Of a stretch of DNA of 64,000 bases, positions 3,091-7,760 are shown one piece after another. Within the stretch, counting starts at the first letter, position 1, and each line of letters opens with the position of its first letter. The stretch lies in IMG/VR virus record IMGVR_UViG_3300013114_000098. One strand, written 5' to 3'. Below the pieces are notes generated by a model. The model worked only from the letters and a program-made list of their open reading frames with translations, did not search any database and was not told the origin of the DNA. The DNA comes from a virus. A program made the translations under genes and the position numbers.

Positions 3091-3314
3091 TAGCTTCTCG
3101 TCAACCCGAAGACATTGTAAAATTAGTTGAACAGTATAATAAGGATTTAGAAACTACAGAAGGTAGCTACTTAGATGTAGTTATTCGTAGTGAAGGTGCG
3201 GTTAGTTATAAAGACATTCTGCAAATGCCTGTGAGCAGTATTAAACTCTTAATAGAACGTATGAATAGTCGTGTTGAGGAAATTAATAAAGCAAGAAAAG
3301 GTAATAGACGTTAG
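3087..3314 (+). CDS. Small baseplate/tail assembly protein (gp51-like position); TTG start or -1 frameshift extension of the upstream gene
   Basis: This is the -1 frame relative to 2260..3090. TTG at 3087 overlaps the TGA stop, and slippery AAATTTTTTC lies at 3072-3081. Confidence 0.55.
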   Translation: MIASRQPEDIVKLVEQYNKDLETTEGSYLDVVIRSEGAVSYKDILQMPVSSIKLLIERMNSRVEEINKARKGNRR

Positions 3315-3754
3315 TGGCCTGTTATTAAATTATAATAATCTTCTGGCCAACTGTCATAATATGTGGTGTTTTTGTGTAAATGTTTACGTTTTTCATGTAA
3401 ATCGCTTTTTCTTTGAACAAACACACAGTCAGTAAAGTTCTTTACAAAATGTCCACTTGTTCTTGTACTAGTAAAATATAATAAGTGAGGATGTTTTTCT
3501 CTAAGCTCTGCACAAGTCTTTTCTATAAAAGACATATCATCTACATCACCCAACCAACAAATAGCCATTTGGTACTTAACATGGTCAAATGATTCTAAAG
3601 CCAGAACATTGTCACGTGCATCAACAAACTGTAATGCATTTTTAATTCTTGCACTTTTTGCATACGGACATATAGGATATCCATCATCCTTTAAAGGCTC
3701 AACTGATTCTTCTGCAAACTTTAAAAATTTAATCCGAAATTCGTCCAACGTCAT
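3311..3754 (-). CDS. Hypothetical protein, DUF1415-like N-terminus
   Basis: 147-aa ORF with a PICPYAK motif, an AGGA RBS and a late-like CATAAATA at 3850-3857 (-). Confidence 0.55.
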   Translation of the reverse strand: MTLDEFRIKFLKFAEESVEPLKDDGYPICPYAKSARIKNALQFVDARDNVLALESFDHVKYQMAICWLGDVDDMSFIEKTCAELREKHPHLLYFTSTRTSGHFVKNFTDCVFVQRKSDLHEKRKHLHKNTTYYDSWPEDYYNLITGH

Positions 3755-3879
3755 GTATATGTTTTCCTGATATAATTGATGTCTTCGACATCATCAACTT
3801 CGCAAAGCTAATCGCTTTGCTCGTTGTTGTTGCTTACGCTTTATACACTTATTTATGTTAATTTATATTGAATTTAAAT

Positions 3880-4350
3880 GACTACTTGACAAGATGCTTT
3901 ATTCACACTTAGCCTTATACAGGCCAAGTGTAAATTGTTCTTGACATAGAACTCTACCCACAGATACTATAGTAAACCTAGTTTAGCACCTAGGAAGGGC
4001 GGTTACGCGGTACCCTTATTACATACTGCTTTATAACGCAGAAACACCCATTGCCATAGTATCAACTTTGGGTTGTCCTCAAGTTCCAAATTGTCAGGAG
4101 AGCTTGATCATTTTGATTTGTCAAATCAGTGCATTGACTTATAGGCACACCAGTTCTGGTCACAATGAAGTAACCTCAAGGTGAGTCGAGCGAATCTCGA
4201 CCAATCAGGGCCTTGTAGCCTATGTTAGTTTTTATTAGCCTAAAATTGTATTTGAGTTGGAGCCGGACTTTAAGTCTGTATGAGTTTTGGTTTTACACTA
4301 TTAGTTATCTTATGCTTTAATTATTAGCTGATAATAAAGTTAAAACGCTA
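3880..4350 (-). ncRNA. Candidate large structured ncRNA (structured core ~3880-4215)
   Basis: ORF-free, locally GC-richer, with at least 10 helices, an 8-bp long-range pairing (3963-3970 with 4056-4063) and a sigma70 promoter at 4359-4387. Confidence 0.65.
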
Positions 4351-4358
4351 CTTTTGTT

Positions 4359-4387
4359 ATAATAACAAAAATTTAATACGTTGTCAA
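4359..4387 (-). promoter_or_regulatory. sigma70-type promoter reading into the ncRNA candidate
   Basis: TTGACA (4387-4382), 17 bp, then TGnTATTAT (-10 at 4364-4359). The -35 overlaps the GIY-YIG stop codon. Confidence 0.65.
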
Positions 4388-4830
4388 CCTTTCTTTAAGT
4401 GTTCCGTAAGAATTTTTGAACTACCCACCCTTACGTTAATAATGCCGTTATAGTATTCATCGGTTTCTAATACTCTACGGTCAAATTGTTCTTTTGCTTC
4501 CATGTAACTTAATACACCTTTACTAGGACAATAATGTAAAATTTCTCTAGTAAATTTATTTGAACCAAGTGTTAGGACATCTGCGTTTAAATGATCTGAT
4601 GACCCCCAATAGTCTTGCCAATCACTTTCTTTATATCCACGTCTTTTATTCTTTTTACCTTTAAGTGGTGGCTTAGTTGTTTTAAATCTTGCTAGTTTTT
4701 TACCTATGTATTTTTTATTGTTAGTAAGATTTGTAATTACATATACAAATCCTTCGCAATCATTAGGTAATTCATTGACTATTTTATTTTTATATGTCCA
4801 TGGACAATTATTCTTCTTTGACCCATTCAT
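4384..4830 (-). CDS. Stand-alone GIY-YIG endonuclease (Seg-like catalytic domain)
   Basis: GFVYVITN...KYIGKK, YWGSS, FTREIL, conserved Glu (YMEAKEQ) and YYNG. 148 aa with no appended DNA-binding domain. Confidence 0.85.
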   Translation of the reverse strand: MNGSKKNNCPWTYKNKIVNELPNDCEGFVYVITNLTNNKKYIGKKLARFKTTKPPLKGKKNKRRGYKESDWQDYWGSSDHLNADVLTLGSNKFTREILHYCPSKGVLSYMEAKEQFDRRVLETDEYYNGIINVRVGSSKILTEHLKKG

Positions 4831-4966
4831 TTATTGTTTTCCTAATCAAGTCTAAAGTATCTATACCTAGTTCGTCCTTTTTTATTGTTTCCGGTGCATG
4901 TAATAATACATAAGTCCATTTTTCGTGTAATTCTAATTCTTCTTGTTTGTTATATGTATTACGCAT
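4808..4966 (-). CDS. Small hypothetical protein (52 aa), not in the ORF track
   Basis: MRNTYNKQEELELHEKW...EWVKEE*. It fills the gap between gp46 and the GIY-YIG gene and overlaps both. Confidence 0.4.
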   Translation of the reverse strand: MRNTYNKQEELELHEKWTYVLLHAPETIKKDELGIDTLDLIRKTINEWVKEE

Positions 4967-6737
4967 CAATTACTTCTACTTCAGTGTCAAATGTAGTGAA
5001 GCCATTTTCTTTAGTAACTTGTAGCACTCTGCTAACTCTACCTACTAATTCATCTCTGTGTGAAATAAGTAAAATATTCTTATTTCTATCACGTTCAAAT
5101 TTCTTTAACACACCTAATGCACTATCAACACCAACTGTGTCCATACCACTATCAACAAGTTCGTCTATACAAACAAAGTTAATAGGATGATTCATACTTT
5201 CAAATACATCACGGAATGCCCAACTAAGTCCAAGTATAAGTCTATTACGTTCTCCCCTTGATAAATTATCAAAATCTAAATCTTGACCAAGTTGTGTAAT
5301 AGTTACAGTTAAGTCACTTTGAAATTCTACTTCATGCGGTAAACCTAGTCGTGTAATATAATATTCTAAACGTGTGTTTAAAAATTGTAAGTTTTGTTCA
5401 ATAATCTTTTTACGAATAAAACTATCTTTGTTAGTTAATAGTTTTAATAAAAAGTCTTGATGTTCTCTTAATTCTTCAAGTGTATTTACTTCTTCCCAAT
5501 CTACATCTTGTAATCCTGTATTTTTTAAAACATCAATTTGTTCTATATACGGATTAGTTTCGTTTGCGGCATTAGTCATTGATGATTGTAACTTATCTAT
5601 TTTACTTTGATGCTTATATGCTTCTTGTAAGGTATTATATTCAATTGTGGGAGCATTTCCAATTTCACCAATGGCAGTAATTGCATTTGTGTACGATTCA
5701 ATTAATTCGTTCTCTTCAGTAATTTGAGTTTGACTTTCATTTACAAGTTCTGTTTTTTGAGAAACTATTTTATCATGTTGTTCATCATGAATATCTTGTC
5801 CACATGCATAACATTTATGTTCTAATGTAGCAGTTAAATCTTCTTGTGCCTTATCTAAACGTTTCTGTTCACGTTCAGAACTACTTGTAAGTCTAGCTAT
5901 TTCAGCATTTAAAGTATCTATTTGGCCTTTCTTTTCATTAAATTCAGCAAACTCTTCGTGTGCTTTTATTTCTTTATCAATGTCAATATGTTCTAATGCT
6001 TGTATCTCACTAGTATATTCTTGAATACGTCCTTCTAGTTGTGAAGCCCATGTCTTTTCTCTACGTTCAAGATCTTTAATACTATTATTAATACGTTCGT
6101 TTGCATCTTCTACTCCTTTAAGTCTATATGTTTCTTCAGTTATTCTGTCTTTAGTATTTTTTAATAGTTCTTTAAGTATATCAGCCTTCTCACTAAGTTT
6201 AGTAATTCCTAACAATTGCTCAATCATGTCACGTTGATCATTTGCTCTCATACTTAAAAATGGTTCAGTGTATGTATTCAGTGCAATAATATGCTTAAAC
6301 ATATTATGAGTCATACCAAGTGTTTGTTCAATTACGTGTTGGCTTTCTCTGCCTTGCCCTTGCATTTCATCTGTAATGTCGTCGTCATTGCTATCTACGT
6401 CATTGACTAGATATTTAAATACATTGGGTTTGCGTCCACGCTCAATACGATAATTTACACTGTCTATTTCAAAATCAACAGTGACCATCATATTTTTATT
6501 ATTAGTTTTATTAACTAAGTTATCTTTTTTAATACTGTATAACGCACTACCAAATAATGCATAACTTAATGCATTAATAATTGTTGTCTTACCTGTACCA
6601 TTACGTGATCCATCACCACCTAAATCTAAATTATTACCTAATACAAGTGTTAGCCCTGCATCATCAAAGTGAACAGCCTGTGTGACATTGCCCACACTCA
6701 TAAAGTTCTTTACGGTGATATTTTTAATTATTAGCAT
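4959..6737 (-). CDS. gp46-like recombination endonuclease subunit (Rad50/SbcC ABC ATPase)
   Basis: Walker A NGTGKTT, zinc-hook CYAC within a coiled coil, signature LSRGE, Walker B CIDELVD and H-loop ISH. Confidence 0.93.
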   Translation of the reverse strand: MLIIKNITVKNFMSVGNVTQAVHFDDAGLTLVLGNNLDLGGDGSRNGTGKTTIINALSYALFGSALYSIKKDNLVNKTNNKNMMVTVDFEIDSVNYRIERGRKPNVFKYLVNDVDSNDDDITDEMQGQGRESQHVIEQTLGMTHNMFKHIIALNTYTEPFLSMRANDQRDMIEQLLGITKLSEKADILKELLKNTKDRITEETYRLKGVEDANERINNSIKDLERREKTWASQLEGRIQEYTSEIQALEHIDIDKEIKAHEEFAEFNEKKGQIDTLNAEIARLTSSSEREQKRLDKAQEDLTATLEHKCYACGQDIHDEQHDKIVSQKTELVNESQTQITEENELIESYTNAITAIGEIGNAPTIEYNTLQEAYKHQSKIDKLQSSMTNAANETNPYIEQIDVLKNTGLQDVDWEEVNTLEELREHQDFLLKLLTNKDSFIRKKIIEQNLQFLNTRLEYYITRLGLPHEVEFQSDLTVTITQLGQDLDFDNLSRGERNRLILGLSWAFRDVFESMNHPINFVCIDELVDSGMDTVGVDSALGVLKKFERDRNKNILLISHRDELVGRVSRVLQVTKENGFTTFDTEVEVIDA

Positions 6738-7760
6738 TTATGTTGTTAGTCCTCTGTAAATATCTACTAGTAGTTGCTTTTTAATAGTATCACTTTGTAC
6801 TGAGTTAAGTTGCGACAGTACAATGCTATCTACGTTTTCTACTTGGATATCAACTCCTTTATTCCAGTCTTGTGTATGTTCTTCTTTTTTGCTAGGCATA
6901 AGAGCAATCTCACGTAAGTTGTATTGTTTAATAAATGTTTCTTTAATAAAGTTTGCTTCTTCGTATGTAATACCAACATCTAATGTAACACGGCAATGTG
7001 TTTTATCAGATAAGTATTTGTCTGGGTTATCTATTAATTTACTTAATGTTAAAGTTCTATACTTAGGAGCATCTGGCCATGCTAGATATTCTATATTGCC
7101 ATCCCAATCTAAAAACATGCATCCTCTGTCGTCGTCCCATGTATCAGCATAGTTATGTGGGAAACAATTGCCTGGGTAAATTACATTGCCACGTTTTTGT
7201 CTTTTATGAAAGTGTCCACTAAAAACCATCTCAGGTTTTGATAAGTCTTCTGCTTTAAGACCTCCTGTGTCTGGCATTTGTACAAGGGCATTCATATAAA
7301 AGTCTGGCAATTCAAAATGACCAAACATAAATTTACATTCAATTTGTTTTAACTTTTTCCATTCGTCATCACATAGCCAAGGAATAAATGCTACGCCATC
7401 TTCAATAAGCATTTCCTTGTTTACCATTCTAATTTTTTTGAAGTCCTCAATCATTGATAAACTATGAATCTCACGCTTTTCACGATAATATAAATCATGA
7501 TTACCAGTGATCATTATAATCTCATCAAAGTTCTCATTAAGTCTTCGTAAGTTACTAGTGGTATAATTTAGTGTGCTAACATTGATACTAGCACGATTGT
7601 GATGCCAATCTCCTAAGAAGAAACATTTTTTAATGCCTCTTTTATGAGCTTCAGCAATCATCCATATGATAAAATCTTCACAATCCTGGTTATGATATCT
7701 ACTGTTATTCTTCATGCCAAAGTGAATATCAGTAAAGATCACTGCTTTGTCAAAAAACAT
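6738..7760 (-). CDS. gp47-like recombination nuclease (Mre11/SbcD metallophosphoesterase)
   Basis: DIHFG, GDWHH, GNHD, GHF and SGHFH motifs; adjacent to gp46. Confidence 0.93.
   Translation of the reverse strand: MFFDKAVIFTDIHFGMKNNSRYHNQDCEDFIIWMIAEAHKRGIKKCFFLGDWHHNRASINVSTLNYTTSNLRRLNENFDEIIMITGNHDLYYREKREIHSLSMIEDFKKIRMVNKEMLIEDGVAFIPWLCDDEWKKLKQIECKFMFGHFELPDFYMNALVQMPDTGGLKAEDLSKPEMVFSGHFHKRQKRGNVIYPGNCFPHNYADTWDDDRGCMFLDWDGNIEYLAWPDAPKYRTLTLSKLIDNPDKYLSDKTHCRVTLDVGITYEEANFIKETFIKQYNLREIALMPSKKEEHTQDWNKGVDIQVENVDSIVLSQLNSVQSDTIKKQLLVDIYRGLTT

What the first reader, a model, noticed from the sequence alone, without database searches (positions are those of the whole stretch)
3880..4830. 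Large pseudoknotted ncRNA candidate directly behind a stand-alone GIY-YIG nuclease
Seen: a ~630-bp ORF-free gap in an otherwise gapless region. Its core is almost fully paired, with helices at + coordinates 4185-4201, 4149-4160, 4114-4128, 4079-4107, 4046-4073, 4026-4041, 3995-4017, 3977-3994, 3937-3952 and a long hairpin at 3902-3934. The loop sequence ATAGTATC (4056-4063) is perfectly complementary to GATACTAT (3963-3970), and the TGACA/TGTCA loop sequences offer a second kissing pairing. A sigma70 promoter overlapping the nuclease stop codon points into it. Known: Seg-type GIY-YIG homing enzymes normally carry extra DNA-binding domains, whereas this one is a bare 148-aa catalytic domain. 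Inference: this is an unrecognised structured phage RNA, possibly an RNP partner (scaffold or guide) of the nuclease, or an independent ribozyme or structural RNA. I cannot match it to a family I know.
Basis: partly seen in the sequence, partly recalled or inferred. Interest (0 to 1): 0.85.

Follow-up and report, generated by a model that had tools for sequence, protein, structure and literature searches.

The report
Twin-box knotted RNA of marine phages
The gene-free stretch behind the small nuclease gene encodes a real, intricately knotted RNA of about 350-470 bases that is in no RNA catalogue; the nuclease is a swappable neighbour rather than its partner, and two short matching "boxes" suggest the RNA pairs back onto its own DNA.

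Summary
Window 3755-4383 (minus strand) is ORF-free. The gap is 72-96% identical in relatives whose flanking protein is only 47-88% identical. On 30 diverse members, 90% of cells pair (34-40% when partners are slid) and 45 of 68 pairs show double changes. No Rfam family, tRNA or tmRNA matches.

The nuclease-RNP idea is not supported. In 127 unique members the upstream slot holds GIY-YIG (68), an unrelated PD-(D/E)XK nuclease (22), a serine recombinase (5), once a tyrosine integrase fragment, or other genes. An 80% identical GIY-YIG sits beside nrdB in phage Melnitz, whose genome lacks the RNA.

Two 7-8-nt direct repeats flank the long hairpin (3946-3940 and 3891-3885). They are identical within a phage and differ between phages. 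Where they differ, box 1 has G where box 2 has A (37:2). This fits box 1 RNA wobble-pairing with the complement of box 2, that is its own template DNA, next to a 78% AT tract. My best guess (about 30%) is a ColE1 RNA II-like R-loop anchor or primer.

This scan met the same family before on other DNA ("twin-box RNA").

The parts
4359..4387 (-). Sigma70-type promoter of the RNA: -35 TTGACA (4387-4382), 17-nt spacer, TG-extended -10 TATTAT (4364-4359). It overlaps the GIY-YIG stop codon. Predicted start is near 4352.
   Evidence: 11 of 12 matches. The hexamers are conserved and the spacer varies across relatives.
4232..4352 (-). 5' leader, variable in length between relatives. It holds an A/U-rich hairpin (4346-4340 with 4320-4314) and repeated CUAAYA words just before the core (for example 4229-4223).
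   Evidence: The leader is absent or replaced in subgroups where the upstream ORF ends about 220 nt before the anchor motif.
4114..4231 (-). 5' third of the core. It has hairpin 4201-4185, helix CACC/GGUG (4183-4180 with 4151-4148) enclosing hairpin 4175-4158, and hairpin 4128-4114 with a UGACA loop.
   Evidence: nhmmer core hit 4231-3895. Helices 1-5 are 79-85% paired and most pairs covary.
3963..4113 (-). Pseudoknot domain. It has helix 4107-4103/4083-4079 with an inner hairpin and hairpin 4073-4070/4049-4046. The loop of that hairpin (4063-4054) pairs with 3972-3963 across three hairpins (4041-4026, 4017-3995, 3994-3977), which gives a four-way junction.
   Evidence: helices 6-12 are 90-100% paired, and 8 of the 10 pseudoknot pairs show double changes. 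Covariance model R1 scores 157.6 bits here and finds no other copy in the window.
3937..3952 (-). Box 1 hairpin GUUCU-AUGUCA-AGAAC. Box 1 is UGUCAAG at 3946-3940.
   Evidence: The stem covaries (AUAUC/GAUAU, ACUUC/GAAGU, AUACC/GGGUAU). Box comparison.
3904..3932 (-). Long conserved hairpin (H12) UACACUUGGCC...GGCUAAGUGUG between the two boxes.
   Evidence: helices 13-14, 91% paired. GGCUAAGUGUGA is nearly invariant across the family.
3885..3891 (-). Box 2, UGUCAAG. It is identical to box 1 and starts 12-13 nt after H12.
3821..3884 (-). A/T-rich, length-variable spacer with a T4-late-promoter-like ATATAAAT (3868-3861) and a GCGUAAGC mini-hairpin (3839-3832).
   Evidence: across 88 members the spacer is 78% A+T, the core 56% and coding flanks 65%. 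YATAAAT occurs at a fixed distance in 42 of 88.
3773..3820 (-). Two conserved, covarying hairpins (A: 3820-3802; B: within 3795-3773) about 20 nt before the ATG of the next gene.
   Evidence: double changes at pairs 700/727, 701/726, 735/744. At least one hairpin is kept in subgroups that lack the downstream gene.
4384..4830 (-). Stand-alone 148-aa GIY-YIG nuclease gene. It is a neighbour of the RNA and is not shown to be part of it.
   Evidence: Pfam SegE_GIY-YIG 2.6e-34; PHROG 447; motifs intact; 80% identical copy beside nrdB in phage Melnitz.
3311..3754 (-). 147-aa gene of unknown function, the usual but not universal downstream neighbour.
   Evidence: No Pfam or NCBIfam hit. The AF2 model has pLDDT 77 and no convincing fold match. 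The gene is absent downstream in at least 14 members.

Best explanation
The gap encodes an autonomous, promoter-driven, non-coding RNA of an uncatalogued family. It has a core of about 350 nt, or about 470 nt counted from the predicted start, and occurs once per genome. It folds into about a dozen helices, including a loop-to-downstream pseudoknot that closes a four-way junction. It ends in a hairpin flanked by two identical 7-8-nt boxes, followed by an A/T-rich tract and two more hairpins. These points are shown: the fold, the conservation, the single copy, the independence from the nuclease, and the concerted and asymmetric evolution of the boxes. The rest is inferred. Box 1, presented on a hairpin, base-pairs with the template DNA strand at box 2. 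This anchors the transcript to its own gene and favours a persistent RNA-DNA hybrid over the A/T-rich tract. The hybrid could prime or open DNA for replication, as ColE1 RNA II does. The GIY-YIG gene upstream is a free-standing homing-type nuclease gene parked beside a highly conserved RNA gene. The confidence given (0.3) is for the inferred mechanism. That this is a real, uncatalogued structured RNA independent of the nuclease I hold at about 0.95.
For: Reality of the RNA: plus contigs covering 3908-4214 in four metatranscriptome runs.
Autonomy: the neighbours vary.
Boxes: they are identical over at least 7 nt in 76% of 46 unique members, against 12% when box 1 of one member is paired with box 2 of another. 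There are about 15 distinct box words. No complementary partner lies within 3 kb, even when wobble is allowed.
Asymmetry: box 1 G with box 2 A occurs 37 times against 2 for the reverse, or 23 to 1 by distinct local context. Box 1 U with box 2 C occurs outside the AGAUAGA group, where the reverse is nearly absent. Only pairing of box 1 with the exact complement of box 2 predicts this direction, and the template strand is that complement by definition.
Setting: the tract after box 2 is 78% A+T. The position, at the end of an early-type unit next to recombination genes gp46/gp47 and facing late baseplate genes, recalls T4 origins, which use promoter-driven R-loops (my own knowledge of Kreuzer-lab work and T4 oriE).
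Precedent: ColE1 RNA II is a 550-nt structured primer whose fold decides hybrid formation (PMC5043065). That an upstream RNA loop pairs with template DNA near the origin is my recollection of Masukata & Tomizawa 1990 (the reference is listed).
Against: There is no direct evidence of replication initiation. T4-like genomes give no usable skew signal. The transcript ends are not mapped, because contigs cannot show them. A 7-8-bp anchor only 55-64 nt upstream is much closer than in ColE1. So elaborate and conserved a fold, with a four-way junction and many invariant single-stranded bases, is more than a primer seems to need and suggests binding of a protein or another function. The G/A asymmetry could partly reflect local constraints on box 1, which is partly within a hairpin stem, and the events are not all phylogenetically independent. 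The A/T-rich tract also carries a late-promoter-like motif, which explains its composition more simply. No antisense regulator like RNA I was looked for.
Confidence: 0.3

Rival explanations
1. The RNA acts in trans and grips two copies of one outside partner, such as a host or phage RNA or a nucleic-acid-guided protein. Each box binds one copy. The boxes evolve fast because the partner differs between hosts or phages, giving specificity or immunity in the manner of the P1 c4 and P4 CI antisense systems.
For: The boxes evolve together with no complement in cis. All differences between the boxes are transitions, which one partner base can tolerate through wobble. The RNA has its own strong promoter and varied neighbours, and it also sits on recombinase-bearing modules in bacteria. 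Phage RNAs that act through duplicated short target boxes are known (P1 c4, P4 CI; my own knowledge).
Against: A common partner predicts no direction in the differences, yet box 1 holds the wobble base 37:2. No candidate partner was found. The whole genome is not held, so a genome-wide covariation search was not possible. Box changes between near-identical phages (TGTCAAG versus TGCCAAG in cores about 97% alike) would need the partner to change just as fast.
Confidence: 0.2
2. The RNA is a structural or catalytic 'ornate' RNA that works as a folded particle or protein scaffold, as proposed for GOLLD, ROOL, OLE and raiA. On this reading the boxes are tertiary or protein contacts.
For: It is large and has a complex, well conserved fold with many invariant unpaired bases. 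It is carried by phages and mobile islands, like GOLLD and ROOL (bioRxiv 10.1101/2024.12.08.627333 found; details from my own knowledge). RNA-library contigs cover mainly the core 4220-3908 and not the leader.
Against: Protein or tertiary contacts do not explain why two boxes must be identical yet free to vary. There is no homology to any ornate RNA.
Confidence: 0.2
3. The RNA is a long cis-regulatory leader, such as a riboswitch or attenuator, that controls the downstream 147-aa gene.
For: It lies on the same strand directly upstream of that gene in 71 of the 127 unique members. Two conserved hairpins sit just before the ATG.
Against: The downstream gene is missing in at least 14 members, where a convergent baseplate gene follows. 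In bacterial-type modules it is replaced by unrelated genes of 126-151 aa, and elsewhere by others. A separate late-type promoter motif lies between the RNA and the gene. No alternative pairing that uses the boxes was found.
Confidence: 0.08
4. The RNA is the guide or scaffold of the adjacent DNA-cutting enzyme. Box 1 acts as a short guide and box 2 as its DNA target.
For: About 85% of members with enough flank have a nuclease or recombinase gene directly upstream. The box asymmetry fits RNA-to-DNA pairing.
Against: Four unrelated enzyme folds occupy the slot, and some members have non-nuclease genes there. The same GIY-YIG at 80% identity works in a genome without the RNA, and this nuclease family is common in cyanophages. 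A guide that targets its own locus would be self-destructive for a homing enzyme.
Confidence: 0.05

Closest known systems
ColE1 RNA II (plasmid primer transcript) and T4 R-loop origins (oriF/oriG, oriE)
   Same: It is a promoter-driven, untranslated, highly structured transcript of several hundred nt. A sequence in an upstream RNA loop matches a downstream DNA site, and an easily opened tract follows. It lies in a T4-like phage, where an early-type unit meets late genes.
   Different: There is no sequence or structural homology. The anchor is 7-8 nt long and only about 55 nt upstream. No RNase H site, DNA start or antisense regulator is known. Origin function is untested.
GOLLD (RF01998), ROOL (RF03087), OLE and raiA: large ornate RNAs of unknown function
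   Same: It is a large, intricately folded RNA rich in covariation, carried by phages and mobile elements, with its own gene and no known function.
   Different: There is no homology (no cmscan hit). It is smaller. It has the twin-box feature and a fixed place between the gp46 module and the baseplate genes in this phage group.
Polynucleobacter-1 RNA motif (RF01718)
   Same: Earlier notes of this scan say the first third of freshwater relatives matches this catalogued but unexplained motif, which comes from Burkholderiales and fresh water (PMC2864571).
   Different: RF01718 gave no hit here, even at permissive E-value limits of 2 to 10, on the window or on seven relatives including the bacterial copy. 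It also gave none at gathering score on 15 diverse loci.
Free-standing homing endonuclease genes beside conserved RNA genes (for example T4 SegB in the tRNA cluster)
   Same: A small GIY-YIG gene sits in an intergenic slot next to a very conserved non-coding gene. The slot is filled by a different nuclease family in relatives, and a near-identical copy lies in another phage at another locus (beside nrdB).
   Different: No extra DNA-binding domain is present. Cleavage and homing are untested. The gene is stably inherited within this clade (65-95% identity).
P1/P7 c4 and P4 CI antisense immunity RNAs
   Same: Short boxes duplicated on one transcript evolve together and set specificity.
   Different: Those systems contain a complementary box in the processed RNA between the repeats. 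No such complement exists here.

Membership tests
Any Rfam 15 family | Covariance-model match at the gathering score | tested here: not met
   There were 0 hits in the whole window and 0 in 15 diverse relatives. Permissive scans gave only chance-level hits at E of 0.39 or more.
Polynucleobacter-1 motif (RF01718) | Match of the 5' third to the RF01718 model | tested here: not met
   No RF01718 row appeared at permissive E-value limits (10 on the window and the Njordibacter copy, 5 on L016, L024, L061 and L017, 2 on L097, L147 and L109). The freshwater relatives named in earlier notes were not examined here.
Group I intron | Interrupts a gene and has the P3-P9 core with the order P3-[P4-P6]-P7-P3'-P8-P7' | tested here: not met
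   It is flanked by complete ORFs. There is no Intron_gpI hit. The 5' strands of the local hairpin and the pseudoknot are only 6 nt apart, which leaves no room for a P4-P6 domain.
tmRNA, including two-piece forms, and tRNA-like RNA | tRNA-like domain with T-loop and acceptor/CCA end; tag reading frame | tested here: not met
   ARAGORN finds nothing in the window or in 12 relatives. There is no tmRNA Rfam hit. No UUCGA-type T-loop is seen in the alignment. A CCA-adding enzyme gene lies next to the RNA in L265 and two genes upstream in L134; this remains an unexplained lead.
ColE1 RNA II-type primer / R-loop origin | Untranslated, promoter-driven structured transcript running into the site | tested here: met
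ColE1 RNA II-type primer / R-loop origin | An upstream RNA segment pairs with template DNA near the initiation site | tested here: inconclusive
   Twin-box identity and the 37:2 wobble-compatible asymmetry fit this, but the evidence is indirect.
ColE1 RNA II-type primer / R-loop origin | Persistent hybrid, RNase H processing and DNA synthesis starting at the site | not testable with these tools
   This needs infected-cell experiments.
Seg-type free-standing GIY-YIG homing endonuclease | GIY-YIG catalytic domain with conserved Tyr, Arg, Glu and Asn | tested here: met
   Pfam PF19835 at 2.6e-34. GFVY, YIGKK, KRR, E111 and N128 are invariant.
Seg-type free-standing GIY-YIG homing endonuclease | Sporadic, mobile distribution | tested here: met
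   An 80% identical copy lies beside nrdB in Melnitz (Kyanoviridae). PDDEXK_15 fills the same slot in 22 relatives.
Seg-type free-standing GIY-YIG homing endonuclease | Additional DNA-binding domain; site-specific cleavage of the allele that lacks the gene | tested here: not met
   No domain lies beyond residues 11-131 of 148. Cleavage cannot be tested here.
RNA-guided nuclease RNP | Obligate co-occurrence of the RNA and one effector family | tested here: not met

The most novel reading that the evidence does not exclude
The twin-box RNA is a self-addressed RNA. Box 1 acts as a short guide that invades its own gene at box 2, and the resulting site-specific R-loop serves as a programmable replication origin or recombination hotspot of jumbo T4-like phages and small bacterial islands. 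The box word would then be an origin or incompatibility specificity label. The nuclease and recombinase genes that crowd the upstream slot would be exploiting, or acting on, this opened DNA.
Probability: 0.12. Interest if true: 0.85.

Novelty: new variant of a known kind. Interest (0 to 1): 0.66.

Why it matters
Large structured RNAs with unknown jobs are rare, and they have often revealed new biochemistry. It also occurs on recombinase-bearing modules in bacteria, and it is not catalogued. Its twin boxes give a concrete test: mutate one box, then restore the match. If the RNA anchors to its own DNA, it would be the first phage counterpart of the ColE1 primer mechanism and would locate an origin in a phage group with no cultured member. 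The work also corrects the annotation: the neighbouring GIY-YIG gene is a mobile nuclease gene and not a partner of the RNA.

Tried and rejected
Known RNA families: Rfam at gathering and permissive thresholds on the window, 22 relatives and the bacterial copy gave nothing. A 23.6-bit 'drum' hit at E 0.94 is chance. ARAGORN found nothing.

Cultured phages: blastn of the gap against 50,697 phage records gave no match.

Cis partner for the boxes: the exact reverse complement within 3 kb and a wobble-tolerant search within 800 nt found nothing syntenic.

Other box models: I considered boxes as -35 elements of antisense promoters, as a target-site duplication of a mini-insertion, and as a recombinase crossover core. 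I rejected the first because most variants are not promoter-like, the second because no empty site exists, and the third because the spacing is only about 57 bp and the asymmetry points to RNA pairing.

The 147-aa downstream gene: Pfam, PHROGs, NCBIfam, PADLOC, the Atlas, AF2 with Foldseek and VIA-align gave no informative match. The best was Z 6.8 to AglA, within noise.

Cultured genomes: PA5oct, the closest cultured relative by gp46 (50% identity), and Melnitz have no homologue by BLAST, nhmmer or model R1.

Bacterial relatives: a BLAST search of 401 genomes of the Njordibacter order found only the one copy.

Read laying: it used contigs only, so parts without cover and contig ends give no transcript boundaries. 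That three RNA-library contigs stop at 4206-4214 is at most a weak hint.

Literature: I found no paper describing this RNA.

Full report
**What is there.** The window is part of an A/T-rich marine T4-like or jumbo phage. On the minus strand it carries a late sigma factor gene, then gp47 and gp46 (4959-7760). Next come a 53-aa ORF, a 148-aa GIY-YIG gene (4384-4830), a 629-nt ORF-free gap (3755-4383) and a 147-aa gene (3311-3754). The last of these faces a baseplate gene on the plus strand. The gap folds better than shuffled sequence (z -4.1) and its centre is richer in G+C than the surroundings. A near-consensus promoter, TTGACA-17-TG-TATTAT (4387-4359), overlaps the nuclease stop codon.

**Conservation and structure.** The downstream protein led to 29 related viral contigs. 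The gap is 72-96% identical at the DNA level in these relatives, although that protein is only 47-88% identical. RNAalifold on 18 sequences gave 108 pairs, 42 of them with compensatory changes.

A family-wide motif then found 98 viral contigs, one bacterial chromosome and more than 120 metagenome contigs. I wrote the helices out on an alignment of 30 diverse members:
- 90.2% of cells form standard pairs, against 75.4% in shuffles and 34-40% when partners are slid by 1-3 columns.
- 45 of 68 pairs change on both sides.
- That pairing closes a four-way junction of three hairpins.
- Many G-U pairs fix the minus strand as the RNA strand.

Covariance model R1, built on the pseudoknot domain, finds exactly one copy in the window. 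It also finds one copy in a 3-Mb Njordibacter chromosome, one in a 221-kb phage contig and one in a 124-kb phage contig.

**Not a known RNA.** Rfam 15 gives nothing at gathering or permissive thresholds for the window, 22 relatives and the bacterial copy. ARAGORN finds no tRNA or tmRNA. The topology does not fit a group I intron, and no gene is interrupted. Contigs from four metatranscriptome studies cover 3908-4214. This is weak evidence of expression, because the runs were chosen with this stretch and contigs show neither strand nor ends.

**The nuclease is a neighbour, not a partner.** The upstream slot in 127 unique members holds:
- GIY-YIG in 68;
- the unrelated PDDEXK_15 nuclease in 22;
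- a small serine recombinase in 5;
- a tyrosine-integrase fragment in 1;
- a CCA-adding enzyme or small unknown ORFs in others.

The same GIY-YIG protein, at 80% identity, lies beside nrdB in the cultured Methylophilales phage Melnitz. The complete genome of that phage has no copy of the RNA by BLAST or by R1, and R1 found its positive controls in the same run. The 148-aa form is the normal length of this family (PHROG 447), and its catalytic residues are intact. The simplest reading is that mobile nuclease genes collect next to a highly conserved non-coding gene, as SegB does in the T4 tRNA cluster (my own knowledge).

The downstream 147-aa gene is also dispensable, and its fold told me nothing.

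In bacteria and some metagenome contigs the RNA sits in a recurring module of recombinase, RNA and an ORF of 126-151 aa. Among 401 genomes of the Njordibacter order, only that one genome carries it, so it was acquired horizontally.

**Twin boxes.** Two segments flank the long hairpin: UGUCAAG at 3946-3940, partly in a hairpin loop, and UGUCAAG at 3891-3885, 12-13 nt after the hairpin.
- They are identical within each phage and differ between phages. Variants include UGCCAAG, UGUGAAG, GGUGAAG, GGGAAAAGU, GGGAAAUAG, UGGUAAAGU, GGGGUAAUGAC and AGAUAGA.
- Own-pair identity of at least 7 nt holds in 76% of unique members, against 12% for cross-pairs.
- No complementary sequence exists nearby.
- Where the copies differ, the difference has a direction. 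Box 1 has G where box 2 has A 37 times, and the reverse occurs twice (23 to 1 by local context). Box 1 has U where box 2 has C in several lineages.

Box 1 can therefore always pair, with G-U or G-T wobble, to the exact complement of box 2. The converse would give A-C mismatches. A shared outside partner predicts no such direction. The template DNA strand at box 2 is the exact complement by definition.

**Most likely mechanism.** Box 2 is followed by a length-variable tract of 78% A+T, against 56% in the core, and then by two conserved hairpins. I therefore favour, at about 30%, an RNA that anchors to its own template. This would promote a persistent R-loop, as ColE1 RNA II does (PMC5043065; Masukata & Tomizawa 1990 from memory, reference seen) and as T4 origins do. 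The R-loop would prime or open DNA. This step is inference. The ornate, conserved fold suggests further or other functions, the A/T tract also holds a late-promoter-like motif, and nothing here shows replication. The rivals are a trans-acting RNA that binds two copies of a partner, an ornate structural or catalytic RNA, a leader of the downstream gene, and a nuclease guide. They are listed with their odds.

**Verdict.** The structured-RNA reading is supported and the RNP reading is not. The family is absent from Rfam and from the literature I could search. This scan has met it repeatedly on other DNA under the nickname 'twin-box RNA'.

Noticed in passing
L265:1518-2732 (+), and L134:5225-6490 (-): A tRNA nucleotidyltransferase (CCA-adding enzyme) gene lies directly upstream of the RNA in one contig and two genes upstream in another. 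No tRNA genes are nearby. This could hint at a tRNA-like 3' end or be chance.
   Followed up: partly
L088:12571-14390 (Njordibacter chromosome); also L173, L217, L221, L225, L190: There is a recurring module: a divergent small serine recombinase (a tyrosine integrase fragment in L190), then the RNA, then a conserved ORF of 126-151 aa with no known family. In Njordibacter, ORFs of 687 aa and 318 aa with no known family follow.
   Followed up: partly
L070:8868-9530 (Pseudomonas phage PA5oct): The closest cultured relative by gp46 has an ORF-free gap of about 660 nt at a similar place, before a 150-aa gene and the baseplate hub. It folds with z -5.5 but shows no homology to this RNA by nhmmer, BLAST or the covariance model.
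   Followed up: partly
window 3861-3868 (-): An ATATAAAT motif, like the T4 late promoter TATAAATA, lies between the RNA and the 147-aa gene. It occurs at a fixed distance after the long hairpin in 42 of 88 family members.
   Followed up: partly
window 4220-4240 (-), and relatives such as L091, L016, L099: There are two to four copies of a CUAAYA word spaced about 11 nt apart just before the first core helix. Copy number varies between subgroups. They could be protein-binding or iteron-like repeats.
   Followed up: no
window 4808-4969 (-): A conserved 53-aa ORF lies between gp46 and the GIY-YIG gene and overlaps the nuclease start by 23 nt. It has a weak DUF5623 hit (E 0.005).
   Followed up: no
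L212 and L275 (metagenome contigs; L212 lies on a 665-kb contig): These loci match the search pattern but score only 14-18 bits with model R1. They share a 64-65-aa upstream ORF. They may be very distant members or chance matches.
   Followed up: no
L062 (IMG/VR contig of 221,643 bp): CheckV rates this 221-kb relative as about 60% complete, so phages of this group may exceed 300 kb.
   Followed up: no
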